A stretch of 64,000 nucleotides of DNA from a bacterium. GTDB lineage: Bacteria > Bdellovibrionota > UBA1018. Position numbers and translations under genes: made by a program. The stretch lies in NCBI GenBank assembly GCA_019751945.1, contig JAIEMT010000007.1, positions 2,608 through 66,607 of the forward strand. Direction: 5' to 3'. The notes beneath the pieces are model-generated. The model was not told where the DNA came from. It worked only from the letters and a program-made list of their open reading frames with translations, and searched no databases. Shown here piece after piece: positions 22,486-64,000 of the stretch (position 1 is its first letter; each line of letters opens with the position of its first letter).

Positions 22486-22923
22486 TTAGCCTACGCGCTT
22501 ACCGAAAACCTTCTGGTCGAGCGAGTACTTACCAGGTCCAGTGACCATGAAGAGTACCGACATACAAAGGTAGATTGCTGCCAACTCGTAAGAAGACTGT
22601 CCCACAAAGGGGTCGCCTTTCACGAAGATGTGGAAGCTCATGGCGACGCCCATCGTACAGATCAACCCCAGAGATGCTAGCGGGAACAAGAGCCCCAGAA
22701 TCCAAGCCAACCCCCCTCCAAACTCAGCGAATGCAGCTAGGAATTGAAAGAGTGCGGGCACCGGCGAATCCGGCCCCATCCAATGAGTCGCATTCTGGAA
22801 CTTCGGCCATCCGTGCAGAACAAAGGCATAGCCCGCCACTAACCGGAGCAACAAGAAAGCTCCCGAATTCCAGGCCGACTGATTCTTCACCAAAAAGAAC
22901 TTTTTAAGCTGAGCCGTTTTCAT
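22486..22923 (-). CDS. DoxX family membrane protein
   Basis: 145 aa, four TM segments, DoxX-like N-terminus (AFLLLRLVAGYAFVLHGWPKF). Confidence 0.6.
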   Translation of the reverse strand: MKTAQLKKFFLVKNQSAWNSGAFLLLRLVAGYAFVLHGWPKFQNATHWMGPDSPVPALFQFLAAFAEFGGGLAWILGLLFPLASLGLICTMGVAMSFHIFVKGDPFVGQSSYELAAIYLCMSVLFMVTGPGKYSLDQKVFGKRVG

Positions 22924-23067
22924 AAGAATCCCCCCGAAGATGTTGAAATAGCTTTACTAAAAGCTACCATCCCCTGGGGCTGAGTCAATTGGTGTCCGGG
23001 TATTTTGGGCTTTCTTCCCTTGATTCTGCCCCTGCGGTCGGGTACTCCTTCGGGTCTACATCAGCGT

Positions 23068-23145
23068 CGGGATGTGGCGCAGCCTGGCTAGCGCACTTGC
23101 ATGGGGTGCAAGGGGTCGTGGGTTCAAATCCCGCCATCCCGACCA
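23068..23145 (+). tRNA. tRNA-Pro (anticodon GGG)
   Basis: 78-nt cloverleaf folded by hand. Acceptor CGGGATG/CATCCCG, D-arm GCGC-AGCCTGGCTA-GCGC, anticodon stem CTTGC/GCAAG with loop ATGGGGT (anticodon GGG), T-arm GTGGG-TTCAAAT-CCCGC, discriminator A plus encoded CCA. Coordinates are anchored to the overlapping track ORF frame. Confidence 0.8.
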
Positions 23146-23179
23146 TTTTTCCTCGGAAATTTACTCCTCTAAAACTGAG
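23131..23179. repeat. Left arm of a perfect 49-bp inverted repeat (includes the last ~15 nt of tRNA-Pro)
   Basis: CCGCCATCCCGACCATTTTTCCTCGGAAATTTACTCCTCTAAAACTGAG. Its exact reverse complement recurs about 55 nt downstream. Confidence 0.7.
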
Positions 23180-23205
23180 CCAGGGTGAGCTTCCTTGCTC
23201 CTTGG

Positions 23206-23229
23206 TCCCCGCGTCCTGCGGGGCCCTTT
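23206..23229 (+). terminator. Putative intrinsic terminator for tRNA-Pro
   Basis: GC-rich hairpin CCCGC-GTCCT-GCGGG followed by CCCTTTTAT. Lies in the spacer of the inverted repeat. Confidence 0.4.
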
Positions 23230-23233
23230 TATG

Positions 23234-23282
23234 TCTCAGTTTTAGAGGAGTAAATTTCCGAGGAAAAATGGTCGGGATGGCG
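23234..23282. repeat. Right arm of the 49-bp inverted repeat
   Basis: CTCAGTTTTAGAGGAGTAAATTTCCGAGGAAAAATGGTCGGGATGGCGG is the exact reverse complement of 23131..23179. It ends about 5 nt before the CPBP-protease ORF. Confidence 0.7.
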
Positions 23283-23287
23283 GTGCT

Positions 23288-24193
23288 TTGTCATGTCGAC
23301 AGGCGACATCCATTGGTTTATTGGGCGATACAATGCCCATATCGACAGGATCAAAAAACAGCAGAATAGGATTCAGCTTTAGACTGCTCGCTTATTCGTT
23401 TGGGTTTTGGGCAACATTTTTCATTTCACTATTTCTCGTTATGTTCCCTGGGCAAAAACTAAATTGGGATAAAGCTGTCACCCAAGCCATCTTCGGCACT
23501 ACTTTTATCGCTTTATTCTTTTTGTTTACAAGGGGGTTCGCCCGTCGGTTTGATAACTATGGATGGGAAGAGCTCGGCTTAATCTCGGGTAAGCCTTGGT
23601 GGTTGGCATTTGGATTTGCTCTAGGTGCCTTGACTATGCTTGGGCAGCTTCTAGTTGAGGCACTACTAGGTTGGACCCAATTTACTAGCAGACCAATCTC
23701 CAGTGAAACATTTGTCTGGTACATCTACCCGGGAATTTCGTTAGTTGGAATTGCAGCCTCGGGATTTTGCGAAGAACTCGCCTTCCGAGGTTATCTATGG
23801 CGAAAATTTCAAGACCAGCAAGGGCGGCTGCCAATAGTTTTGTTCATGACAGCTTTATTCTTTGCCATCATTCCTCACTTCAACCAGCTCAACCTCTTTT
23901 TCTTCATTTTTGCTTTTTTGATGGGGCTTTTACTTGGTTGGTTTCGCTATCGTACGGGGAATTTATGGTTTGGGATTGGTTTCCACTGGGCTTGGAATTG
24001 GTCACAGGGGAGTCTTTGGGGCTCTAAAGGATACTCCCTGATTTATGTGCAACACTCTCCGCCGACCCATGAGTGGGCAGGTCACAACTTGGCAGCGGAC
24101 GATATTCTTCAAATCATTATTTTAAGCCTATTGCTCTTGGCCTCTCTAATTTTCTCTAAGGCACGATGTCTTGCTTCAACTCATAAACGGTGA
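23288..24193 (+). CDS. CPBP family intramembrane metalloprotease (CAAX protease-like)
   Basis: 301 aa, about 7 TM segments. CPBP motif 1 EELAFRGYLW, later FHWAWN. The real start may be an internal Met (MPISTGS). Confidence 0.6.
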   Translation: MSCRQATSIGLLGDTMPISTGSKNSRIGFSFRLLAYSFGFWATFFISLFLVMFPGQKLNWDKAVTQAIFGTTFIALFFLFTRGFARRFDNYGWEELGLISGKPWWLAFGFALGALTMLGQLLVEALLGWTQFTSRPISSETFVWYIYPGISLVGIAASGFCEELAFRGYLWRKFQDQQGRLPIVLFMTALFFAIIPHFNQLNLFFFIFAFLMGLLLGWFRYRTGNLWFGIGFHWAWNWSQGSLWGSKGYSLIYVQHSPPTHEWAGHNLAADDILQIIILSLLLLASLIFSKARCLASTHKR

Positions 24194-24698
24194 GTTTAAG
24201 GTCTGTTCCCTTGGCGGTTTTTTTGATTTCTTCGCCGTTGGGTTGAAATCCAAACTTCTTCACGGCGCCCAAGGAGCTGGGGTTGTGGGCGGCTATTTTT
24301 GCGACGATTGTGCTGAAACCCAGCTTTCCAAAACCGAGATCGATCATGGCCTGAATCATTTCTGAAGCGATCCCTTTGCCCTGCCAGGGATTGGCGACCC
24401 AATAGCCGATCTCGCCCCTTTTTGGGTCCTGTTCTTCCACTAAGCAGATGCAACCGACGGGACGGCCCTTTTCTTTTTCGTGGGCAATATAAAGGTACTT
24501 GCCCTTCGGAATGCCCTCGATTGCAATTTTGCACCAGCCCTCTGCTTGTTCGAGGGTCATGGGCCAGGTCAGAAAGGAAATCATCTCGGCGGTTTCGCGG
24601 TAGTTGAGGGTGTCGAAGACGTCTTTCACACTGTGCTCGCCGATGATGGTCAGGTTGAGTCGGCTGGTCTCGACAGCAAGGGTCATAACGGGGTTCAT
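24156..24698 (-). CDS. GNAT family N-acetyltransferase (RimJ/RimL-like)
   Basis: 180 aa. Acetyl-CoA-binding motif QGKGIASEMIQAMIDLGF. The overlapping Arg-rich 187-aa ORF in another frame is rejected. Confidence 0.6.
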   Translation of the reverse strand: MNPVMTLAVETSRLNLTIIGEHSVKDVFDTLNYRETAEMISFLTWPMTLEQAEGWCKIAIEGIPKGKYLYIAHEKEKGRPVGCICLVEEQDPKRGEIGYWVANPWQGKGIASEMIQAMIDLGFGKLGFSTIVAKIAAHNPSSLGAVKKFGFQPNGEEIKKTAKGTDLKLTVYELKQDIVP

Positions 24699-24811
24699 GG
24701 AAGGATAACTTAAGCAAATTCTCCCTGAGAGTACAGACCTTCGGGGCTTGAAACTCCAAAGTTTTCAGGCTCGGTTGACAATACTATTCAATTTCAGAAG
24801 AATAATAGACC

Positions 24812-25966
24812 ATGCGCCTGAGAAACCTCGTTATCTGGGCACTCCTTGACACCGCTCTGGGTTTTCCAATTGCCGCCCTTGCTTGCGAAAATGTTCGTCT
24901 GGATTTGGATCCCAAAGTCCTTGGAAAAGTGCCTGCCATGAAACAGGGAAAAATCTCTGCCTGTTTCAGCACTACCGCAGTTCAATTAATTGATGCTTAT
25001 CGATTTTCAAATGGAGACGTGGATTACAACTTCCTTTCCTCACCTATTGTTCTCGGGTCAGAGTCAGGAGACATCCTTTCTGAAGGGGGCACGGTAAAAG
25101 ATTCTCTGATACGAGCACAGTCCGTGGGCACTTGTAGCACGAGAGAAACGGCCCGCTTTTTAGGCAACGATCAAGGTTCCGAGTTTTTGGAGTTTTTAGC
25201 CAAAAACTATTCTCTCGCTCGTGGACGTTCCTACAATCCCTTGCTGAAACAGAACATCCAGTCCCTTTCTAAAACCCAATATTTCGAACAAGACAATGGC
25301 GGTAATTTCGAAAATCTGGATTCACTTCGATCGGTGACGTTTGCCAGAGACATGCCCAAAGTACAAAAAAAGCGTCCGAAGTATACTGCTGATCAAAAAA
25401 TGGCAGCTCAGGACATCTGTCAACGCTTGAAGACACTTGGATTAGAAGATGCTTCGGTAACTCGAATTCTGGAATTTCTCACAGAGTCCCGCCAGATTTT
25501 TATATCTCGCATTCTAGGCAGTCTCTGCAAAGAGAGAAAAAGTCTAAAATTCCTTCCAAATCCTACTATGGAAGACGCCTGGACTACGGGACCTTCCGGA
25601 GTAGCCCCACCCAATAGCGCTGTTCGTGAATCAAAAATTAATTTGGCCATCGACCAAGCCCTCAAAAACAAAAGACCAGTTGCTATCGAATTTTGCAATG
25701 AGGCAGTCACCTCTCTTGAGCATGAAGGAAAGTACAATGAGAAGGGCGAATGGATTTGTGAAAAGAACGGACAGCACGCGGCGGTAGTTGTGGGAAGCAA
25801 GACAAATGCTATCGGTGGTTGCTTCTACCTAGTTCGCGACTCTTACTGCGACCAATATCCGAAGCAATGGAGCGGTCTCAGTAAGAAAGACGTGTGTGCC
25901 GGGGGGCAGTACTGGATTCCTTCCGGTAGACTCTTAAAAAATACCCGCGCGGCAATACACTTTTAG
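24812..25966 (+). CDS. Secreted papain-like (C1-type) cysteine peptidase candidate
   Basis: 384 aa with a signal peptide. Candidate catalytic Cys (KISACFSTTAVQLIDA, compare CGSCWAFSTTGA), His (NGQHAAVVVGSK) and Asn/Trp region (YLVRDSYCDQYPKQWSG) in papain order. Confidence 0.5.
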   Translation: MRLRNLVIWALLDTALGFPIAALACENVRLDLDPKVLGKVPAMKQGKISACFSTTAVQLIDAYRFSNGDVDYNFLSSPIVLGSESGDILSEGGTVKDSLIRAQSVGTCSTRETARFLGNDQGSEFLEFLAKNYSLARGRSYNPLLKQNIQSLSKTQYFEQDNGGNFENLDSLRSVTFARDMPKVQKKRPKYTADQKMAAQDICQRLKTLGLEDASVTRILEFLTESRQIFISRILGSLCKERKSLKFLPNPTMEDAWTTGPSGVAPPNSAVRESKINLAIDQALKNKRPVAIEFCNEAVTSLEHEGKYNEKGEWICEKNGQHAAVVVGSKTNAIGGCFYLVRDSYCDQYPKQWSGLSKKDVCAGGQYWIPSGRLLKNTRAAIHF

Positions 25967-25971
25967 TCTCA

Positions 25972-27564
25972 CTACCTCAGCTCGGAAATATATGTCTCGA
26001 GCTCCGGCAGACTGGAGGGATGCAAATGTTCGACCGGAGGCATGGGGCGAGCGCTTCTTGAGTGGATTCGCTCGATAAAGGATTCAATGAAGTCGGCCTT
26101 GTTTCTGCCTGCCTTTTCTAGCTGCTGAGCTAGTTTGGGGAGGTCATCTAGAGCTAAATCGGGGGCGCCGGTTTCTCCGCCCTCGTGGCAGGTCATACAT
26201 TTCTGTTGAATCAGACGAACTGGTGGGACACCAGCCGGCTCTTCCTGTTTTGCAAAAACATTTAAGGGATTGAAACCCAGTCTACTCGCTTCCTTTTTGA
26301 GATCGTTTTCGATGCCATAGCAAAACCACCTCGGATATTTAAAGAGGTTCGAGCCCCCAAAAGCTTTCGATAAAAGGGCAAAATCAGATTCGGGACCGAG
26401 CGTTGAAGTAAAAGCTGCAGAATTCTTTTTTAGACCTAGGCTCAACTGATCCAACTCAATGCCCATGGCTTTCAACGCCACAGCCCAAACCCTTGATCCA
26501 TCGTAAATTCCAAATGAGTCTTTGCGATCTGCGTACTTTGAAGTGTACTCCGGAGAAAAAGCATTTTTTCGGTTTCGACGCTCGCGACGGTAATCTCCTA
26601 AACTTCTACCGAGATCAGAGGTGTACTGATCTCCAAGCGACCCCGGTAAGCAATCAATGTCTTTCACCGGACCAAGACTTGTAGAGTAGGGAAATTCAAG
26701 AATTCGCTTTTTGATTTCATCCGAACGTTTGATTTTGGTCGCGATCCGCCTGACGTTGAGTTCGTGAAGATGAGTTGCTAAACGTAAATTCGGTCTGACA
26801 AAAAAACCATTTTCTACCGAATAGTCTTTAGACGGAAAATCATTGGAACGAGGTCGCCAGTAGGGAAAATATTTCAAATACTCGTTTAGCTTACTATTTG
26901 GATCCGTAGCCTTCAACTCACCCAGCTGTCGATACCGATCCATTCCCGGTTTGGCTTTCTTAAATTTCTCGAAACTTTCTTGCTCAGCCTTGATGAAATC
27001 AATCTGATCATCATCACTGCCATACACTCCAGGCCAGGGGGCGTAGGTGTCCCAGATTGGACGAAGCTCTTGCCGATGGCAGAGGGTGCAGGATTTTGGA
27101 TTTTCCCGGAACTCGGGCCGAGAGCCAGGTGAGAATTTAATCTCATTAAAAAGAAAAGTATCTGACCCATCATCAAACTGAATGATCTCGACCTTGTCGT
27201 AATTTCTCTGAGACGGATGTCCATTGAAAGCCAGAATCAGTTTTCCGTCGCCGCCAAAGAGAATCGCTCGAGGGTACTGATAGCTCGCCCCTTGGAGGCT
27301 TCGGCTTCCGTACACCAGCGTATAGTTTGTTCGATACTCTAAAGGAAGAATGGACAACATCGTGTCCACATCTTGAATATTCTGAGCGATGACCTGATCT
27401 TTCAACCAATCATAAGTAGGAGATTGGGAGTAAGAAAAAGCAAAGTCTTCCTTGGTATAGGATGCTTTCTCAGCAAGCCAGATATCTGTATTGAGTGCCG
27501 AGGCACCCGATGGAAAAAAGAAAACAGTCGCGGAGGAAAGACTGAAACTCGCGACTGTTTTCAA
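25972..27564 (-). CDS. Secreted protein with two c-type heme-binding motifs
   Basis: 530 aa with a signal peptide. CXXCH motifs CTLCHRQE and CMTCHEGG are about 290 residues apart. No wider family recognised. Confidence 0.4.
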   Translation of the reverse strand: MKTVASFSLSSATVFFFPSGASALNTDIWLAEKASYTKEDFAFSYSQSPTYDWLKDQVIAQNIQDVDTMLSILPLEYRTNYTLVYGSRSLQGASYQYPRAILFGGDGKLILAFNGHPSQRNYDKVEIIQFDDGSDTFLFNEIKFSPGSRPEFRENPKSCTLCHRQELRPIWDTYAPWPGVYGSDDDQIDFIKAEQESFEKFKKAKPGMDRYRQLGELKATDPNSKLNEYLKYFPYWRPRSNDFPSKDYSVENGFFVRPNLRLATHLHELNVRRIATKIKRSDEIKKRILEFPYSTSLGPVKDIDCLPGSLGDQYTSDLGRSLGDYRRERRNRKNAFSPEYTSKYADRKDSFGIYDGSRVWAVALKAMGIELDQLSLGLKKNSAAFTSTLGPESDFALLSKAFGGSNLFKYPRWFCYGIENDLKKEASRLGFNPLNVFAKQEEPAGVPPVRLIQQKCMTCHEGGETGAPDLALDDLPKLAQQLEKAGRNKADFIESFIERIHSRSARPMPPVEHLHPSSLPELETYISELR

Positions 27565-27590
27565 AAACCGAAATGAAATAACGCTTAACC

Positions 27591-28757
27591 TCAGTTACAC
27601 TGCCAGGTTTCTTCCCACATCTTATCTTTGAAAACGTATCCTTTTTCCGTCAGACGGCTTACTGAACGACGATTGAAATCAATTGTAATGGTGTCGGCAA
27701 CACTCTTGCCAAAACCAATTTCCGTTTTTAGAAAAATTACTCCAGCAGCTTGCTTAGAGTCGTCGACCTTCCAGGCAAACTTATTGCGACCGGTGTTCTG
27801 AATTTCAGCTGTCGCATTAATTCCTAAGGCATTTGAGAGCACCTGCATGGAACCGTCTTCCTTCTTTTTCACTACGAGATGAGCGTGAGAAGGATTCGGA
27901 TCCTTAGGAGCAAAGTCCCGGCTTGTAGCGTCGCACTCCATCAACTTGGTTGAATCTTCCATCGGCGCGGTTTTGGCAACTTCAGGCAACCTTTCATCCA
28001 CCGGATCAGCCGTGCACTGAAAGGTCTGACTCACGACCGTGTGTTGGCCTTTTCCAAGAACGGCTAAAGAATCCTGACCTAATCGAGAAAAGGCCCCATA
28101 AGTGTCTTCAAAGGTCTGTTTAGTCACCTTCTTGTTGGTCAGATCGACCGTCACAATATCCAAGAAAGCGGGGGTTCTCCACTCTACCGGACCCGGAATA
28201 ACCTTGTAGGATCTCCAAAGATGGACAATGCCCTTTTTGGAGTCCATCCAATCCAAACAATAAGTATCGTTCGCTTCCAAGCGACCTTCCGCCGGAAGGA
28301 GCGTCTGAATGCCAACCGGATCGCCCTTGTATTCACCGTCCGAATAGTTCAAACGACGGCAGGACGGAAAACTCTTGGCGAAAAATGGACTCTTCTTCAG
28401 CCTGTTCCCAGTGTTCATGTTGTAATCCAGGGTTTCTACCGAGACGACAGGACCAGCGGGAACCTGGGATTCTAGCCAAATCTGGGATCCGACTTCGCCG
28501 ACAGGCGCGCTCATGGCTGAACCTCGAATCGTCAAGAGCGTGCGAACACCTGTATTGATCACTCCTTTTTCAGGCTTGATCCCCGTCGCTTTGGCCGAGT
28601 TTTCAGCAATGCATCGCAAAGCGGTGAAACCCTCCGGAGAATAAATGGCCGAATTATCAAAGACCGTTCCAGCATCGATGTTTTGAACCTCGGCAGTCCA
28701 AGCCGAGTGAGCGAGGCAGATACTGAATACGAATAAAATGTGTCGGATGGTTTTCAC
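27591..28757 (-). CDS. Secreted hypothetical protein
   Basis: 388 aa with a signal peptide (MKTIRHILFVFSICLAHSAWTA). Confidence 0.35.
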   Translation of the reverse strand: MKTIRHILFVFSICLAHSAWTAEVQNIDAGTVFDNSAIYSPEGFTALRCIAENSAKATGIKPEKGVINTGVRTLLTIRGSAMSAPVGEVGSQIWLESQVPAGPVVSVETLDYNMNTGNRLKKSPFFAKSFPSCRRLNYSDGEYKGDPVGIQTLLPAEGRLEANDTYCLDWMDSKKGIVHLWRSYKVIPGPVEWRTPAFLDIVTVDLTNKKVTKQTFEDTYGAFSRLGQDSLAVLGKGQHTVVSQTFQCTADPVDERLPEVAKTAPMEDSTKLMECDATSRDFAPKDPNPSHAHLVVKKKEDGSMQVLSNALGINATAEIQNTGRNKFAWKVDDSKQAAGVIFLKTEIGFGKSVADTITIDFNRRSVSRLTEKGYVFKDKMWEETWQCN

Positions 28758-28919
28758 GTTTTTCTCCTAATCTAAAATGTTGCTCAAGGAGCTCCAGCAA
28801 GGCGTTTCTGGGCGTTTATAATTAATAGCGCATAGTGTCAACGCACGTGGAACGAACGGCAACACTCTTCGGTTACAATATTTTGGATTCTTGTACCCAA
28901 ATGAAACTCTGTACTAGTC

Positions 28920-30206
28920 CTACAAGAGTTCCATCGGCTGGACTTTCCTTAAAAAAATAAAACCCGAAAAATGATTCGCTAACACCGCTTTCATTTCCGG
29001 ATCATCATCGGAAGGATCGCCCCAAATTGTTTGTAAGGATGTCATTAACGGGTGGTCCTTATCTAAAAAAACATCGTCCTGAAAAGTTTCAAAGAGGTAG
29101 CTTTCCAAAAAACTGGCCGGTGCCGTCTTTACGATCGGTGGCTGAAGACTACTCAGTCTGAATCCAAGTTCGTAGCTCGAAATCGCGATGGGATGGTACT
29201 TCTTCCCGAAAAACTCCCGCAAGCGAGTGCCCATGGTACGTGTTCCACGGTAATCTTTTGAGACGAATTCGAGTTGATTGCTATTAAAGAGAATATGGGC
29301 GTTGTGCGCCCAGATCACAGCGGGTTTGCCCTTGAGGAAGTGAAGAGAAAAATTAATAATTTTCTTTGCCATTCCTAAATCCCGCGCCGAATTACTGCGA
29401 GGTTGGTCGCTATTTCGATAATACATCTGACCAAGCCAGGCCTGATAACCATCTATCGCAGCCTGAATCTGAAACCGATTTTCACCCCTCGCGTTCAATT
29501 TTAAATCCAGCTTAGCTTTCAGATGGTCGATCGCCAAATTGCAGGAAGCAAAATCCTGGGAATTGATTAGTTTCTCATGATTGAAGACACGACGCTCAGT
29601 CTTACTGGCATCTTCTTCAGTGGCGTCTATTACCAAACAATGCTTCACAAACTGCTGCCATCTCAAGCCATTGGACAAAGCAAATTTTTTCAGGATCTTT
29701 CCATCTGCTGCAGGCTGACGCGTATCGTAGCCATAAAATAGAATGGGGTCTTCGCGATGGCTTTGGTTGAAATCCCTAATCCAAGTGAACATTTTCGCAA
29801 TCTCTCTTGCCTGCCAAACTTTATAGAACCTTTTAAGTGGCTCTATGACATCCGACGATTCCCCAGACAAAAACCGTTTCATGGGTTCGGTAAAAGCATC
29901 CGGTTGTTCAAAGAGCAGAGCTCTGACTCCCTTTTTCTCAACGAGGTATTTTATGATTTCGAATTTGACCTCATAGAATCCTCCCGAACCGTGGGAGCTC
30001 TCCCCTAGTCCAATAAGGAAACTTTCCTCTGCGTCAGAATTTAAGAACTCCCAGGATTCGAGCCCACGCACGTGAGCATAGTCCCCTTTAATATCTCTGG
30101 AAACAACACGTGATGAATCATTGCGAATGCCGCCATGCTGGCATCCGAAAACACCCAGAAACAAAGGCAATGACATCAACCATCTCTTCAAGGTCGACCT
30201 TTTCAA
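28920..30206 (-). CDS. Erythromycin esterase / ChaN-Tiki superfamily protein
   Basis: 428 aa with a signal peptide. GLGESSHGSGGFYEVKFEIIKYLVEKKGVRALLFEQPD resembles the conserved GEATHG..E N-terminal region of erythromycin-esterase-type hydrolases. Confidence 0.45.
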   Translation of the reverse strand: MKRSTLKRWLMSLPLFLGVFGCQHGGIRNDSSRVVSRDIKGDYAHVRGLESWEFLNSDAEESFLIGLGESSHGSGGFYEVKFEIIKYLVEKKGVRALLFEQPDAFTEPMKRFLSGESSDVIEPLKRFYKVWQAREIAKMFTWIRDFNQSHREDPILFYGYDTRQPAADGKILKKFALSNGLRWQQFVKHCLVIDATEEDASKTERRVFNHEKLINSQDFASCNLAIDHLKAKLDLKLNARGENRFQIQAAIDGYQAWLGQMYYRNSDQPRSNSARDLGMAKKIINFSLHFLKGKPAVIWAHNAHILFNSNQLEFVSKDYRGTRTMGTRLREFFGKKYHPIAISSYELGFRLSSLQPPIVKTAPASFLESYLFETFQDDVFLDKDHPLMTSLQTIWGDPSDDDPEMKAVLANHFSGFIFLRKVQPMELL

Positions 30207-30227
30207 CTATATTCACCCATACGGCCA

Positions 30228-33200
30228 CTAAGGCACTGTAACAAGGTACAGATGCTCAGGGATTGCTGTACTTGAAGGAAGCACTTCCAGCAAGTCCAAC
30301 ATCTGCCAGTTGGAATTCACGCGAATGCGGATCGTATGAGGACCGGAGGTGAGTGAAATATTGGGGCTATAAAGCTTACCCCAGTAGACCCCACCGCCTT
30401 TGGAATCTGGACCCTCGATGCTATCGAGGTCTGCGCTTAATTCCACCGCCTTGTTGTCGACGAAAACTTGGTAGTTGTTGCGCGCGATTAAATAGGAATA
30501 CGGATCTCCTGAAGTCGCTGAGCTGGAATAACCCGTTCGAACACGCACGGCAAAGTGATAACTCCCGGCCGATGAAACGTTCACGGGGATGGAAATCTCA
30601 TCTCCGTTATCTACCATCATCAGGCCTGCTCCACCGCTAGCCAAATCAAATGCCGCGCTTCTAATCGTACCGTTGGTACCAACGTCGCTCACCTTCGTAT
30701 AAGAAGAAGTCTCTAATTCTATCACCTGTGCGCTCCCATTCGCACCGGGAGGATTCATATCCGGTGTCGGCACGGTAGCAAGCACGGTATTGCTTGGAAA
30801 CGGAACGTCGGCTGTGAGTACTTCAAGAACATCGAGCATCTGCCAACTAGAATTCATACGAATGCGAACTGTGTGATTGCCCGCGCTCAAGGATAGATTC
30901 GGCGTATACAAATTACCCCAGAAAACACCGCCGCCTTTCGAATCTGGTCCGGCTATTCCATCTAAATCTGCAATCAATTGAACGGCAACGCCATCGATGA
31001 AGACCTGATAATTATTCAATGTAGTGAGATAGGAATTGGGAACGGACTTGCTCGTGTTGGAATACCCCGTTCGTACTCGAAGAGCAAAGTGATAAGCCCC
31101 GGCACGCGCAAGATTCACCTGAATTGAAAATTCATCGCCTGGGTCGAGCGCTTGCAAACCCGCTCCACCACTCGCCAAATCAAATGCTGCCATCCGAATG
31201 TTGCCGTTACTACCCACGTCGCGAACATTCATTAAGGTCGCTGACTCGAGCTCCACTCGCTGAACCAAACCCAACTCGGGTTCTAAGTCGGTTACAGATG
31301 CGGCTGGATCTCTCCAGAGCACAACCGCACTTTGAGGTTCGACAAAAAATGGGAAGTAGGTCGGAAAACCTTCGAGGTCTCTCCAGCCCGAACAGAGGGT
31401 GCCCGACAACGAACAGGGAATCGATACTGCTTGGGCAGTACTGGGGTTCACCGCGACCTGAAGGAGCTGATCAAAATTTGTAGCTGTCACGCTCACCGCT
31501 TTTAAATCAAAACCACCAAAAATCACCTGAGAGGAAACCGGAATGGTGAAATCGATTCTCGCGTTGGCAGAGGTTGCACTCGCACGAAAATAGATGTCAT
31601 GAGTAGTCCAAAGTCCGGCCTCGGTTCTAGCTTGAACGGAGAGCTGCTGATTGAGCGCATCGATGTTTCCATAGGGAGTGACATTTTCACGAACGCTCAC
31701 TCCGATCAAAGCAGGTTTCGAAGTAGCCGATCGTAGTTGCACTCGGGCTCGATAATAAGTGTCTCTTACCGTGGAAAATGGTTTTGATATCGCAAGGCCA
31801 ATTTCGCTGGCTGCAGTGGAGTAGAGTAAACAAATGCCGGAACTACTGACGATCGGACAAGGAACCTGAGCCTTTGTTGCCGTCACGTTAGCGGACCAAA
31901 CCGAAAAGCTCGAAAGCTCAGACGCCGTACCCGCGTTCAAGGTAGAACTTTCCGAAACAGTCTGAAAACCCGGAGTGACGGAACTGAACGGTTTCATGGG
32001 AGCACGATCCACTCCTAATCCTGCTAACTCCTCAAAAGTAAAATCGCGAGAACCCGCATTCGACGTAAACCGTAGGTAAGTGAAAGTGGTGGGATTCAAA
32101 AAAGTGTTTCCAGAGCCACGTATCGCTGCAGGAATACGATCTAGACCAGTGCCCTGATTGGAATACACCCATATTGGAATTGCAGAATACTTCGAGCCCA
32201 AGACGTTCCCGACAAAAAGATTGTTTACCGAAGCTGGAACAGTTTGGCCACTCGGGTTGAGAATAGGAACAAACTGCGCGGTTGGTCGGTCAAATCTTTT
32301 TCGAACACTATCCTCCGCAGATCTCACACCGTAGACCTTGTAATTAAGAAAAGAATTGTTCTGAATGACGTTGTCATATGCATCGTGAAGCATCAGTGCA
32401 ATGTCGACGTTCTCAACAACATTGCCGGTAACGGTCATTCCGTGAGAATAGTCATCAAGATAAAGACCTGCTACCGCATACGCAACCCGCCCCTTTCCTG
32501 AAAGGTTCGCTGTCGCATTTCTGAGAATATTATTTCGAACAGTCACTCGGGGTTGACGATCGGAGATGTGGATGCCCCCGCAGTCGTCCGCAAGTAAACA
32601 AAAGTTCTCAATAACGTTACCTTCAATGACAGCACCTGCTAATCCAAAAATTCCTACGTAAGCAATGTTCTTAAAACGATTGTTTCGAATCACCGCTGGG
32701 CTGGGATAATAAGAATTTAAAAGTACCGCTGCGGCCGAAAACCGAGGCCCCAATGGCGTGCCGATATTTTGAAAATCATTATTTTCGAGAAGAATTCCTG
32801 CGTCTGCTCGAGCAATATAATGTTGCCGAATAACGTCCGACCCGATGTTATTCACCATGGAGTTTTGAATTTTCCAGGGCTGTGTATTTCCGTCGAATGA
32901 AAATGCAAGACGATAACTATTCTTCACCTGAATCTGAAAGATACTCAGATTCGCGGCACCGTTTGCCTGAATGGCATTCAACCCAGAATTGATGATCTGT
33001 AAATTTTGTAGAGTGACATCGGGGCTGTTGGCCAAAGTGAGAATGTTCTTGTCTTCCGCTACCTCAACGACAACGTCATTCGGATTCAATCCGTTTGGCA
33101 ACGATACATAGAGAGTACTGGTCGCAGCGTCATAAACCCAACCCGGTTGGTTCTGAGCCATCATCCAGACTTTGTTTTCGAGATAGTAGCCCCAGTTTTT

Positions 33201-33893
33201 CATCGGAGGATACGCAAAGTAGCAGTTGGGGTAGCACTCCGTAGGTTGCCTAGGTGCAGAGTTCATCGCGAATATTCCGGAAGTGCGATTGAAACTGGAA
33301 ACGACAACAGAGTTGTACCAATAGTCGACAATTCTTGCGGTGAGAGTCGCTCCTACCAAGTCCTTACCACCCAAAAAAGTCAGGTCGCCAGCGGCTGCTT
33401 GAAGAGTGAGATTGCTAGCAGCAGCCGTCGTGGCTGGAGCATTTTCTCCGATGGTTAAAAATCCCGACGCGGGATAGCGCGCTTTCTTTAAGAAGTTGTT
33501 CTGATAAAAAACCTGTCCTACCGGATTAGAAACGACTTTCTTGTAAATTGTACCGGAATGAACACTCCAGCCCGTAACCCGAGCACTCCCACTCAAAGAA
33601 GTGGAGGAAGCTCCTGCACCGTTAATAACAAGTGGAGCCTTGAGACCAGAAATTTGAAAAGTGCCCGCACAAGTTCCAGAGGCGACTTCCAATCTCCCGC
33701 CGACAGTGATGACAGCGTTAATGCCCGCCTGAAGACTTGAAAAGGGGCGGGCTTGAGAGCCGTCGCCTGTCGAGGCGCTTTTGCAATCGACGTAGACCGT
33801 TGCTGCCCAAGAGGCGCTCGCCGAAAGAAGGCCATAAGATAAGGCTAAACACCCAGTACGTAGTAAATTCCCCATCGATCGATCCCCACCCAT
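30228..33893 (-). CDS. Large secreted right-handed beta-helix (pectate-lyase-fold) protein with two tandem C-terminal carbohydrate-binding-like domains
   Basis: 1221 aa with a signal peptide. Central region has parallel beta-helix repeat signatures (NNIGSDVIRQHYIARADAGILLENNDFQNIG; GNVIENFCLLADDCGGIHIS; GNVVENVDIALMLHDAYDNVIQNNSF). The C-terminal ~330 aa are two ~160-aa repeats, about 55-60% identical. Confidence 0.6.
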   Translation of the reverse strand: MGGDRSMGNLLRTGCLALSYGLLSASASWAATVYVDCKSASTGDGSQARPFSSLQAGINAVITVGGRLEVASGTCAGTFQISGLKAPLVINGAGASSTSLSGSARVTGWSVHSGTIYKKVVSNPVGQVFYQNNFLKKARYPASGFLTIGENAPATTAAASNLTLQAAAGDLTFLGGKDLVGATLTARIVDYWYNSVVVSSFNRTSGIFAMNSAPRQPTECYPNCYFAYPPMKNWGYYLENKVWMMAQNQPGWVYDAATSTLYVSLPNGLNPNDVVVEVAEDKNILTLANSPDVTLQNLQIINSGLNAIQANGAANLSIFQIQVKNSYRLAFSFDGNTQPWKIQNSMVNNIGSDVIRQHYIARADAGILLENNDFQNIGTPLGPRFSAAAVLLNSYYPSPAVIRNNRFKNIAYVGIFGLAGAVIEGNVIENFCLLADDCGGIHISDRQPRVTVRNNILRNATANLSGKGRVAYAVAGLYLDDYSHGMTVTGNVVENVDIALMLHDAYDNVIQNNSFLNYKVYGVRSAEDSVRKRFDRPTAQFVPILNPSGQTVPASVNNLFVGNVLGSKYSAIPIWVYSNQGTGLDRIPAAIRGSGNTFLNPTTFTYLRFTSNAGSRDFTFEELAGLGVDRAPMKPFSSVTPGFQTVSESSTLNAGTASELSSFSVWSANVTATKAQVPCPIVSSSGICLLYSTAASEIGLAISKPFSTVRDTYYRARVQLRSATSKPALIGVSVRENVTPYGNIDALNQQLSVQARTEAGLWTTHDIYFRASATSANARIDFTIPVSSQVIFGGFDLKAVSVTATNFDQLLQVAVNPSTAQAVSIPCSLSGTLCSGWRDLEGFPTYFPFFVEPQSAVVLWRDPAASVTDLEPELGLVQRVELESATLMNVRDVGSNGNIRMAAFDLASGGAGLQALDPGDEFSIQVNLARAGAYHFALRVRTGYSNTSKSVPNSYLTTLNNYQVFIDGVAVQLIADLDGIAGPDSKGGGVFWGNLYTPNLSLSAGNHTVRIRMNSSWQMLDVLEVLTADVPFPSNTVLATVPTPDMNPPGANGSAQVIELETSSYTKVSDVGTNGTIRSAAFDLASGGAGLMMVDNGDEISIPVNVSSAGSYHFAVRVRTGYSSSATSGDPYSYLIARNNYQVFVDNKAVELSADLDSIEGPDSKGGGVYWGKLYSPNISLTSGPHTIRIRVNSNWQMLDLLEVLPSSTAIPEHLYLVTVP
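30250..31330. repeat. Tandem duplication (~540-bp unit x2) inside the 1221-aa gene, encoding the two C-terminal binding domains
   Basis: DNA similarity is visible between about 30300-30660 and 30838-31200 (for example GCTCCACCGCTAGCCAAATCAAATGCCGCG versus GCTCCACCACTCGCCAAATCAAATGCTGCC). The protein repeats are VGSNGNIRMAAFDLASGGAGLQALDPGDEFSIQVN and VGTNGTIRSAAFDLASGGAGLMMVDNGDEISIPVN. Confidence 0.55.
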
Positions 33894-34517
33894 CGGCTAA
33901 TAAAGCAATATCGGTACCGAAGACGGTTAATGTAAACCCGCCTAAGTGGGTGAATTCTTTAGGTGTGTCAGGGGTGATTTCGAGTCCATTTGTACAGAGA
34001 ATGAGCACACTTTAAACACTGCGAGTGTAAAATGATCAATCTCACAAAAGGCTCGAAACTACGGATTAGTTTTTTAATTTGCAGACGATCTTGCCGTACA
34101 CCGGCTCTTCGCTATCGGCGTGCTCTTTTGCTTTGCCGAAAACAAGGGTGTATTCGCCCGAGACTGCTCTCTTGATGGTCTCGACCTTGAAGCGGCTGGC
34201 GATTAACGAGAAAGTAAAAGCATGTCTACGAGAAAGCCGCGGAACGCCGCTCCTGAAGCCTCGACGCGGCTCCTTATTTTTCCAGCAGATTGAGTGTTGA
34301 CATCCCGCCGCCCCACGTATACACGAAGCGCAAATACGAGTTCACCGCGGGACGTTATCTCTAGGTGGAAGCGTGTTTTGATCGAATTTCCTCTGGATTC
34401 CCAGGGATGGGAATCCCCCCAATTATTTCAGTTGGACAGTTTGCGGTTGGCAGTATGCGGAAGCGGGCAGCGGTTTGCTGTGACTGTTTCTGTAACGGTT
34501 TTCGGGGGGCCTGAAGA

Positions 34518-63610: not shown

Positions 63611-64000
63611 TTCTTAAACAAGATTTGAAGAAAAAAAATGGATCCATTTGACACCATATTCATGGTTCCCTGTTCTTTTTTACATTTTCCGTGAAAACTA
63701 GTCGGAAAATTATTCAAACCCCGAAAACCGCTCCCCTCTTGATTCTTCAGGCTTTTTTGCCGCAGCTCGTTTCATCCAGGTATTTCTGACGCCTTGCCAA
63801 GACATTGGCACACCCCTCGCATTAGTAAGAACGCAGGAGGCGGTGACACAAATGAAAGGGCTTCAGATGACGTTAGCAGCAGAAAGCACCAACACAAGAA
63901 CAGCAGTCGCCGTTGCCGCCTCCTCTTCTTCCTCTCCAAAGAAACAAGGTTGGCAGTGGCCAACTCCCCTTTGGACCGCTTGGCTTTCACCAAAAAAATG

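What the first reader, a model, noticed from the sequence alone, without database searches (positions are those of the whole stretch)
23068..23290. tRNA-Pro(GGG) 3' end duplicated as a perfect 49-bp inverted repeat bracketing its own terminator
The last ~15 nt of tRNA-Pro plus 34 nt of trailer (23131..23179) recur as an exact reverse complement at 23234..23282, just upstream of the CPBP protease ORF. The 54-nt spacer holds a GC hairpin plus T-tract that looks like the tRNA terminator. A 49-bp perfect inverted copy is too long to be chance and has had no time to decay. Possible explanations are an inversion or recombination scar at a tRNA integration hotspot, a MITE-like element carrying a tRNA-end mimic, or a functional long hairpin. 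If read-through occurs, the right arm could antisense-pair with the tRNA 3' end or structure the 5' UTR of the protease gene. The region downstream (23.3-33.9 kb) is an accessory-looking run of secreted hydrolases, consistent with a tRNA-linked island.
Basis: seen in the sequence. Interest (0 to 1): 0.55.

Follow-up and report, generated by a model that had tools for sequence, protein, structure and literature searches.

The report
tRNA-Pro trailer hairpin at ICE site
The long inverted repeat after this tRNA-Pro gene is real, but most of it is the normal tRNA trailer at an empty docking site for a conjugative element; only its outer 11 bases, copied from the tRNA end, are special to this strain.

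Summary
The repeat is confirmed. Its arms are 23131-23182 and 23232-23283: 52 nt with one mismatch, and a perfect 49-mer at 23131-23179 / 23235-23283. It is the only inverted repeat of 20 nt or more found in the window within a 2-kb span. Independent k=31 assemblies of several sequencing runs break exactly 30 nt inside each arm, so it is not an assembly artefact.

Comparison with about 95%-identical relatives changes the reading.
- Relatives carry a 36.7-kb integrative conjugative element (ICE) exactly between tRNA-Pro ...CCGACCA and the trailer. The window is the empty attB.
- Relatives already have the repeat module, but with 38-nt arms that stop at ACCA/TGGT.
- The window differs from them by one 19-nt patch (23273-23291) inside 1.77 kb of otherwise identical DNA. 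Its first 11 nt are the reverse complement of the tRNA end, in register with the arm.
- The 23.3-33.9 kb block is present in all relatives, so it is not a strain-specific island.

Best explanation: a templated, template-switch type lengthening of an existing trailer hairpin, made on an unoccupied attB. Which form is ancestral is not settled, and 8 nt of the patch have no donor. A function for the hairpin is not shown.

This is an uncommon instance of a known mutational process, and interest is modest.

The parts
22943..22970 (+). Promoter-like site (TTGAAA-16-TACCAT) upstream of the tRNA. It is a candidate tRNA promoter.
   Evidence: Consensus scan only, which found 3 sites against 1.7 expected. 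This is weak evidence.
23068..23145 (+). tRNA-Pro(GGG) gene with CCA encoded.
   Evidence: ARAGORN. Rfam tRNA, 57.8 bits. Identical in relatives L006-L009.
23139..23145 (+). CCGACCA, the common core of the ICE attachment sites. It is present at both attL and attR in relatives. Here it lies in an unoccupied attB.
   Evidence: attL is ...CATCCCGACCA|ATTTAAAC (L006). attR is ...TTCGCTCCGACCA|TTTTTCCT (L013/L014). The window sequence equals the left side of attL plus the right side of attR.
23131..23182 (+). Left arm of the inverted repeat: the last 15 nt of the tRNA plus 37 nt of trailer. The part from 23142 (ACCA) to the inner end of the arm is also repeated in relatives.
   Evidence: Logan contigs end at 23160, 30 nt inside the arm.
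23183..23231 (+). Spacer (loop) holding two small hairpins. One is the terminator-like CCCCGC-GTCCT-GCGGGG at 23207-23223, followed by CCCTTTTA.
   Evidence: Identical and in the same orientation in L013-L016.
23232..23283 (-). Right arm, the reverse complement of the left arm.
   Evidence: Logan contig L005 starts at 23254. L138 starts at 23235.
23273..23291 (+). Strain-specific 19-nt patch, CGGGATGGCGG TGCTTTGT. Relatives have the 14-nt TCTTCGGTTCTTCT here. The first 11 nt are the reverse complement of tRNA positions 23131-23141 and lengthen the arm from 38 to 49 nt. The last 8 nt have no identified donor.
   Evidence: Alignment. It is the only difference within 23139-24904 between the window and L013/L014. 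Search for other donors.
23268..23369 (+). Short ORF of 33 codons that starts at an ATG preceded by GAGGA inside the right arm. In relatives the same ATG is in frame with the CPBP gene (306-aa call). In the window the patch is 5 nt longer and puts this ATG out of frame.
   Evidence: Sequence. Gene calls and translation in relatives. Frame listed (22989..23369).
23333..24193 (+). CPBP (Rce1-like) intramembrane protease gene, as annotated at NCBI (286 aa, MBY0470167.1).
   Evidence: Pfam PF02517, E = 1.5e-18. Cluster look-up.
22486..22923 (-). DoxX family gene, divergent from the tRNA. It was used as the anchor for the comparison of the upstream side.
   Evidence: Pfam PF07681. Homologues and their loci.

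Best explanation
The structure is the chromosomal trailer of tRNA-Pro(GGG). In this species group the trailer is a long hairpin module: 38-nt arms that start at the tRNA's ACCA, around a roughly 50-nt loop holding a terminator-like hairpin.

The tRNA 3' end, with core CCGACCA, is the attachment site of a 36.7-kb integrative conjugative element that relatives carry. The window shows the unoccupied site (attB).

In the window's strain one complex mutation replaced 14 nt just outside the right arm with 19 nt. The first 11 of these are a reverse-complement copy of the tRNA bases next to the left arm. I infer that a DNA strand being synthesised through the right arm switched to the left arm as template, ran on into the tRNA end, and switched back. 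This is a template-switch or fold-back type event. It lengthened the perfect repeat to 49 nt, or 52 nt with one mismatch.

The event must have happened on an empty attB, because only there is CCGCCATCCCG contiguous with ACCA plus the trailer.

Its likely consequences are side effects. The strain gains a second, inverted copy of the attB core region. In read-through transcripts a duplex could compete with the tRNA acceptor and T stems. An SD-ATG in the arm, which is in frame with CPBP in relatives, is frameshifted.

What is shown: the repeat, the ICE and its junctions in relatives, the empty site, and the single clustered difference.
What is inferred: the template-switch mechanism, the direction of change, and all consequences.
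For: - Repeat and its boundaries. Independent assemblies break at the predicted k-1 positions.
- ICE in relatives: on the same 107,864-bp contig (ERZ1079237 k127_228753), the tRNA 3' end lies at contig position 27214 and the attR core ends at 63881. Between them are an XRE regulator, ars-type genes, an ABC transporter, TraC/TraG-like, TrbI and FtsK/SpoIIIE proteins, and a PF00589 integrase next to CPBP.
- Junction sequences and the alignment show that the window equals the left side of attL plus the right side of attR.
- The module from ACCA to TGGT is identical in L013-L016, and L017/L018 show the same right-arm end and flank. Arms there end at ACCA/TGGT, and Logan contigs L017/L018 start 30 nt before TGGT|T.
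- The patch is the only difference in 23139-24904 against L013 and L014. The rest of the 10.9 kb differs at about 6%. The patch is therefore one event, not accumulated point changes.
- An 11-nt match in perfect register with the arm has a chance probability of about 4^-11 (my calculation).
- None of 118 other species with the same tRNA 3' half has more than 7 nt of inverted tRNA end nearby.
- Template switching between inverted-repeat arms is documented to homogenise and expand such repeats and to create perfect stems in one step (PMC8794818; PMC13100816).
Against: - The last 8 nt of the patch (TGCTTTGT) are not explained by a single clean switch. They only resemble the continuation of the tRNA complement (GATTTGA) if one extra base and one mismatch are allowed. 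No other donor was found in the window or loci.
- The direction of change is not established. All relatives with the 14-nt form carry the ICE and share nearly the same right-flank haplotype, so they may count as one lineage. No outgroup has the module.
- The window's haplotype is seen only in one run series, SRR15085117-122.
- The origin of the underlying 38-nt repeat is unknown.
- The full genome could not be searched for further copies.
Confidence: 0.55

Rival explanations
1. The window's form is the older one. The whole right arm (trailer plus 15 to about 21 nt of the tRNA 3' end) arose in one inverted duplication by a fold-back or template-switch event. The ICE-linked haplotype later lost the outer 11 nt through a small replacement.
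For: - In relatives the repeat still reaches 4 nt into the tRNA (ACCA/TGGT), as if it once extended further.
- Beyond the 15 nt, the window shows a bulge and then 5 of 6 further pairs with the T-loop.
- The relatives may represent a single ICE-linked haplotype, because L013 and L014 share the same differences from the window. Their number therefore does not set the direction of change.
Against: - There is no template for the relatives' 14-nt patch. The best match is a 12-mer 21.7 kb away, which is compatible with chance.
- In relatives the SD-ATG in the arm is in frame with CPBP and the reading frame is open, which fits that form being the original functional one.
- The 14-nt form is found in at least five independent sample series, the 19-nt form in one.
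Confidence: 0.25
2. The roughly 130-150 bp module is a miniature inverted-repeat transposable element that landed next to the tRNA.
For: The module is small, has long terminal inverted repeats, folds very stably (-136 kcal/mol, z = -12), and is absent from genus- and family-level outgroups.
Against: - It is single-copy in the 64-kb window and in all fetched loci of this species group.
- There were no hits in genome contigs or metagenome contigs (which turned out not to hold this species), in viral contigs, or in plasmids.
- There is no direct target-site duplication. The flanks are inverted (ACCA/TGGT), and the outer arm is tRNA sequence.
- There is no transposase nearby.
Confidence: 0.05
3. 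The repeat is maintained because it works. It could be an RNA processing or termination structure (for example an RNase III stem separating tRNA from the CPBP mRNA). It could be a recombination-invertible terminator cassette. Or the right arm could be a second, inverted attB for the ICE.
For: - The loop carries a one-directional terminator-like hairpin.
- The arms are long enough for homologous or integrase-mediated inversion.
- The window's right arm reproduces the attB core with 8 nt on one side and 37 nt on the other.
- A ribosome-binding site and ATG sit inside the right arm.
Against: - The module's 100% identity among strains is not a sign of selection, because it sits inside a 1.77-kb block that is identical throughout.
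- The arms show no covariation, so none can be used as evidence.
- The spacer has the same orientation in the window and in all four contigs from relatives that span it, L013-L016.
- No recombinase gene lies next to it in the window.
- There is no Rfam family other than tRNA.
Confidence: 0.1
4. Assembly or library artefact: a chimeric palindromic join.
For: Perfect inverted repeats with short spacers are a known artefact class (general knowledge).
Against: - Contigs from at least five runs, made with a different assembler, carry the same junction k-mers and break exactly at the arm boundaries.
- Relatives assembled by MEGAHIT and SPAdes in other studies contain the same module.
Confidence: 0.01

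Closest known systems
Template-switch mutations at quasipalindromes and inverted-repeat expansion (Ripley model; Lovett; Monttinen & Loytynoja 2022, PMC8794818; Rozenfeld et al. 2026, PMC13100816)
   Same: - A clustered multi-base change in otherwise identical DNA.
- The new bases are the reverse complement of the sequence flanking the other arm, in register.
- The result is a longer perfect repeat.
   Different: - Only 11 of the 19 new bases are explained.
- The arm that grows recruits the 3' end of a functional tRNA gene and an ICE attachment core.
- The direction of change is not proven.
tRNA-gene attachment sites of tyrosine-integrase islands and ICEs (Islander principle, PMC4383910)
   Same: - The element in relatives sits exactly at the tRNA 3' end.
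- The tRNA is regenerated, and a short direct repeat (CCGACCA) marks the far end.
- The window is the empty site.
   Different: The 15-nt tRNA fragment in the window is inverted, not direct. It lies 123 nt from the tRNA with no element between them, so it is not the 'displaced fragment' of an island.
Bacterial MITEs (for example Correia, RUP, ERIC)
   Same: Size of about 130-150 bp, long terminal inverted repeats, a stable hairpin, and an intergenic position.
   Different: No second copy was found, there is no target-site duplication, and the outer arm is tRNA sequence.
Invertible DNA switches flanked by inverted repeats (fimS, hin type)
   Same: Inverted repeats bracket a short segment that holds a directional transcription signal.
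   Different: No adjacent invertase gene, arms much longer than typical switch repeats, and only one orientation in the window and the four spanning contigs from relatives.
Intrinsic terminators and RNase III processing stems after tRNA and rRNA genes
   Same: A hairpin plus T-tract after the tRNA, and a long perfect stem that would be an RNase III-type substrate if it were transcribed.
   Different: The long stem forms only if the inner terminator is read through. No experimental or covariation support exists.

Membership tests
Unoccupied attB of a tRNA-targeting ICE | An element with an integrase and conjugation genes is inserted at the tRNA 3' end in related genomes. | tested here: met
   In L006/L013, on one 107,864-bp contig, TraC/TraG-like, TrbI, FtsK/SpoIIIE and PF00589 integrase genes lie between tRNA-Pro and the module.
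Unoccupied attB of a tRNA-targeting ICE | A direct repeat (core) is present at both element ends, and the empty site equals the left side of attL plus the right side of attR. | tested here: met
   CCGACCA is present at both ends. The window matches L006 up to ACCA and L013 from the core CCGACCA (23139) onward.
Unoccupied attB of a tRNA-targeting ICE | The integrase actually recombines this site. | not testable with these tools
   Only indirect evidence exists. Contigs L011 and L012 stop exactly at ...ACCA, as expected if occupied and empty sites coexist in those samples.
Template-switch inverted-repeat expansion | A clustered change in otherwise identical sequence. | tested here: met
   Differences at 23273-23290 are the only ones within 23139-24904 against L013 and L014.
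Template-switch inverted-repeat expansion | The new sequence is the reverse complement of a nearby template, in register with the existing repeat. | tested here: met
   CGGGATGGCGG is the reverse complement of 23131-23141 and is contiguous with the arm.
Template-switch inverted-repeat expansion | The whole mutated patch is explained by one switch and return. | tested here: not met
   TGCTTTGT (23284-23291) has no exact donor in the window or loci.
Template-switch inverted-repeat expansion | The ancestral state is known, so the direction of change is known. | tested here: inconclusive
   There are two haplotypes only, and no outgroup has the module.
MITE | Multiple dispersed copies in the genome. 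| tested here: inconclusive
   One copy in the window and in the fetched loci of relatives. The public collections scanned do not contain this genome.
MITE | A direct target-site duplication flanks the terminal repeats. | tested here: not met
   The flanks are ...CCCG|ACCA and TGGT|TCTT or TGGT|CGGG, with no direct repeat.
Invertible DNA switch | Both orientations of the bracketed segment occur. | tested here: not met
   The spacer has the same orientation in the window and in L013-L016. Reads were not available.
Invertible DNA switch | A dedicated recombinase is encoded next to it. | tested here: not met
   The neighbours are an aspartyl-protease-like protein, DoxX, CPBP, an acetyltransferase (Pfam call for the identical gene in L005) and proteins without Pfam hits.
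Intrinsic terminator of the tRNA | A GC-rich hairpin directly followed by a U-tract. | tested here: inconclusive
   A hairpin with 7 pairs (6 of them GC) is followed by CCC and then only four T. The scan's hit count equals the chance expectation.

The most novel reading that the evidence does not exclude
By copying the tRNA end, this strain has built a complete second attB core in inverted orientation, 123 nt from the real one. The ICE integrase, or RecA acting on the 49-52 bp arms, could then flip the terminator-bearing spacer. Alternatively the ICE could integrate at the decoy without touching the tRNA. Either route would couple ICE biology to read-through from tRNA-Pro into the CPBP protease gene.
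Probability: 0.05. Interest if true: 0.6.

Novelty: new member of a known kind. Interest (0 to 1): 0.3.

Why it matters
This is a clean natural example of an existing hairpin being lengthened in one step by templated copying. Here the copying reached into a functional tRNA gene and duplicated an ICE attachment core. It also shows that a tRNA-end repeat next to a tRNA gene need not mark an island boundary: the real island is absent from this genome and is seen only in relatives.

The practical value is for annotation.
- The locus is an empty ICE attB.
- The downstream block is not a strain-specific island.
- The CPBP start codon may be affected by the 5-nt length change.

Tried and rejected
- Dispersed-repeat test. 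A 29-mer and a 23-mer of the arm found nothing in genome contigs, metagenome contigs or viral contigs. A blastn 'distant' search against plasmids found nothing. The first two collections evidently lack this species: even the JGI sample that holds L014 was not hit. These negatives are therefore weak.
- Island signature. The composition profile shows no GC break at 23.3-33.9 kb.
- Integrase-only scenarios. I worked through attL or attR recombination with the inverted pseudo-site, and double integration, on paper. All give spacer inversion or flanks derived from the ICE. None places tRNA bases to the right of the right arm, so I rejected them.
- The 15-nt fragment as the displaced attR fragment of an old island made of the 10.6-kb block. 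This would need a regenerated tRNA next to LpxC. Local alignment of the tRNA to 33894-34517 scores no better than 56 of 100 control segments, so I rejected it.
- Inverted repeats at the breakpoints of the inferred 10.9-kb inversion: none convincing.
- Conservation as evidence of function. I rejected this because the module lies within a 1.77-kb block that is identical throughout.
- Rfam at a permissive threshold gave only tRNA, plus a sub-threshold hit to Bacillaceae-1 (E = 0.5).
- Exact look-ups of the 286-aa CPBP protein failed twice. Relatives were reached through cluster members instead.
Full report

Yes. ARAGORN places tRNA-Pro(GGG) at 23068-23145 on the + strand, with CCA encoded, and Rfam agrees. 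The repeat finder reports arms 23131-23182 and 23232-23283: 52 nt, one mismatch, 49 nt between them.

The arm consists of the last 15 nt of the tRNA (CCGCCATCCCGACCA) plus the first 34-37 nt of trailer.

The trailer 34-mer occurs exactly twice, once per strand, with zero matches in 100 shuffles. With a 12-nt seed and arms up to 2 kb apart, this is the only inverted repeat of 20 nt or more found in the window.

As RNA, 23068-23290 folds at -136 kcal/mol, z = -12. The spacer holds a terminator-like hairpin at 23207-23223 followed by CCCTTTTATG. That scan finds no more sites than shuffles do, so the hit is weak evidence.

**2. Is it an artefact?**

No. Logan k=31 contigs from runs SRR15085120, -121 and -122 are 100% identical to the window. 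They stop at 23160 on the left side (L001-L003) and start at 23254 on the right side (L005, from SRR15085122). That is exactly 30 nt inside arms bounded at 23131 and 23283, as expected for a de Bruijn graph meeting an inverted repeat. A contig from SRR15085117 begins at 23235 and carries the same right flank.

**3. What surrounds it?**

Upstream lies a divergent DoxX gene, and downstream an Rce1-like CPBP protease gene. Exact-sequence look-ups identify the source as an NCBI MAG labelled 'bacterium' (locus tags K2X30_, contig of 78,382 bp). Its Rho protein clusters with Bdellovibrionota.

**4. Relatives change the picture.**

A DoxX variant that is 99% identical (P0001) leads to loci L006-L012, and the CPBP cluster member P0147 leads to L013-L018. 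Upstream of the tRNA, L006 and L007 are 95% identical to the window, and homology stops at 23149, the tRNA 3' end. Downstream, L013-L017 are 93.6-95% identical from the att core (23139 in L013-L016) to 34030.

In ERZ1079237 both sides lie on one 107,864-bp contig. The tRNA 3' end is at contig position 27214 and the attR core ends at 63881. Between them are 36,667 bp encoding:
- an XRE-type regulator;
- MIP, LMW-phosphatase and ArsR genes (arsenic-type);
- a redoxin and an ABC/FtsX transporter;
- TraC/TraG-like, TrbI and FtsK/SpoIIIE proteins;
- a PF00589 tyrosine integrase next to CPBP.

The junctions are attL ...CATCCCGACCA|ATTTAAAC and attR ...TTCGCTCCGACCA|TTTTTCCT, sharing the core CCGACCA. 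This is the classical arrangement of an integrative conjugative element in a tRNA gene (principle as in PMC4383910). The window equals the left side of attL plus the right side of attR, so it is the unoccupied attB.

Contigs L011 and L012 end exactly at ...ACCA. I read this, by inference, as occupied and empty sites coexisting in those samples.

**5. Most of the repeat is not new.**

To the right of attR every relative carries the same module, base for base from ACCA to TGGT: a 34-nt trailer arm, the spacer with the terminator-like hairpin in the same orientation, and the inverted arm. There the arms are 38 nt and end at ACCA/TGGT. L017 and L018 start 30 nt before TGGT|T, which confirms that boundary.

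The window differs only just outside the right arm.
- Relatives read TGGT TCTTCGGTTCTTCT CATG.
- The window reads TGGT CGGGATGGCGGTGCTTTGT CATG.

The first 11 new bases are the reverse complement of tRNA positions 23131-23141, in register with the arm.

**6. The patch is one recent event.**

Between 23139 and 24904 the window and L013/L014 are identical except at 23273-23290. The remaining 9 kb differs at about 6%, with further identical blocks such as 28770-30333. Two conclusions follow.
- The perfect conservation of the module is not evidence for selection, because it sits in a recently shared block.
- The whole 14-to-19-nt replacement must be a single mutation.

An 11-nt in-register complement has a chance probability of about 4^-11, so it was templated. 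The template, CCGCCATCCCG contiguous with ACCA plus trailer, exists only on an empty attB. In ICE-bearing chromosomes the arm is preceded by GGTTCGCTCCG. The copying therefore happened in an ICE-free chromosome.

**7. Mechanism.**

Template switching between the arms of an imperfect inverted repeat is known to homogenise and expand such repeats and to create perfect stems in one step (PMC8794818; PMC13100816). The pattern here fits: synthesis through one arm continues on the other arm into its flank and then returns.

Two weak points remain.
- The last 8 nt of the patch (TGCTTTGT) have no donor in the window or loci. They only resemble the continuing tRNA complement with one extra base and one mismatch.
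- The direction of change is not proven. The 14-nt form occurs in at least five independent sample series, and the 19-nt form in only one. However, all 14-nt genomes carry the ICE and share almost the same right-flank haplotype, so they may count as one lineage. No outgroup has the module.

In relatives the SD-like GAGGA-ATG inside the right arm is in frame with CPBP (306-aa gene call). In the window the extra 5 nt put it out of frame, giving a 33-codon ORF at 23268-23369. This mildly favours the 14-nt form as the original.

**8. How unusual is it?**

I compared 118 other species whose tRNA-Pro has the identical 25-nt 3' half. None has more than 7 nt of the tRNA end inverted within 400 nt downstream; 11 of the sites were too short to score. 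The 15-nt copy is therefore uncommon, although the process that made it is known.

**9. The 'island' downstream.**

The 23.3-33.9 kb block comprises CPBP, an acetyltransferase, a cytochrome-c-domain protein, an erythromycin-esterase-like protein, a 1221-aa beta-helix/CBM35 protein and three proteins without Pfam matches. It is present in all relatives to the right of the ICE, and its GC content is close to the flanks. It is not strain-specific.

At family level it is lineage-specific. In four Bacteriovorax, Bacteriovoracaceae and Bdellovibrionia MAGs the order is aminotransferase-(GNAT)-RuvA-RuvB-LpxC-tRNA-Pro(GGG), all on one strand; the shorter loci hold only part of it. The tRNA lies about 115-160 nt after LpxC where the LpxC end is visible. 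In the window the tRNA and LpxC are convergent and 11 kb apart. This amounts to one inversion of the segment running from the tRNA to the beta-helix gene. I found no repeats at the inferred breakpoints and no tRNA remnant near LpxC.

**10. Function.**

Nothing here shows a function for the long stem. If the inner terminator is read through, the predicted fold of the window's transcript pairs the 3' strands of the T and acceptor stems with the right arm. These are minimum-energy predictions of a precursor and say nothing about kinetics.

A role as a processing stem, an invertible terminator cassette or a decoy attB is not excluded. No observation supports any of them: there is one spacer orientation in the window and the four spanning contigs from relatives, no adjacent recombinase, and no Rfam family.

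**11. Verdict.**

The repeat is real and well supported. Its core is the ordinary trailer of this tRNA at an empty ICE attachment site. The strain-specific part is a short templated extension of that hairpin into the tRNA end. This is an instructive but not surprising case. Interest is 0.3, and I file it as a new member of a known kind.

Noticed in passing
L006:1-7790 and L013:1-9878 (ENA ERZ1079237 k127_228753, contig positions 27215-63881); also L007-L009 and L014-L016: A 36.7-kb integrative conjugative element sits at tRNA-Pro(GGG) in relatives. It has arsenic-type genes (MIP, LMW phosphatase, ArsR), a redoxin, an ABC/FtsX transporter, TraC/TraG-like, TrbI and FtsK/SpoIIIE proteins, and a tyrosine integrase. 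It is absent from the window.
   Followed up: partly
window 23291-24904 and 28770-30333: These blocks are 100% identical to relatives, within a region that otherwise differs at about 6%. L013 and L014 share nearly the same differences on the right of the ICE, although their left flanks are 95% and 86% identical to the window. This suggests recent recombination, possibly transfer of flanking DNA together with the ICE.
   Followed up: no
window 23268-23369 and 23333: An SD-like GAGGA plus ATG inside the right arm is in frame with CPBP in relatives (306-aa call). In the window it is out of frame, and the annotated start at 23333 has no obvious ribosome-binding site. The CPBP 5' end may in effect be frameshifted in this strain.
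   Followed up: partly
window 23068-34517 compared with L027, L040, L061 and L094: In family-level relatives tRNA-Pro(GGG) directly follows LpxC on the same strand. In the window the segment from the tRNA to the beta-helix gene is inverted relative to LpxC and carries 10.6 kb of lineage-specific genes.
   Followed up: partly
L011:1-78 and L012:1-78: Contigs from two samples end exactly at the last base of the tRNA (ACCA). This fits a graph branch between ICE-occupied and empty sites in the same sample.
   Followed up: no
L027:7423-7680: A second, partial tRNA-Pro copy follows the first after a run of N in this Bacteriovorax MAG. It is probably a scaffolding join or a tandem att fragment.
   Followed up: no
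window 30228-33893: A 1221-aa protein with right-handed beta-helix, NosD-like and CBM35 domains. Its neighbours are an erythromycin-esterase-like protein and a 530-aa protein with a C-terminal cytochrome c domain.
   Followed up: no
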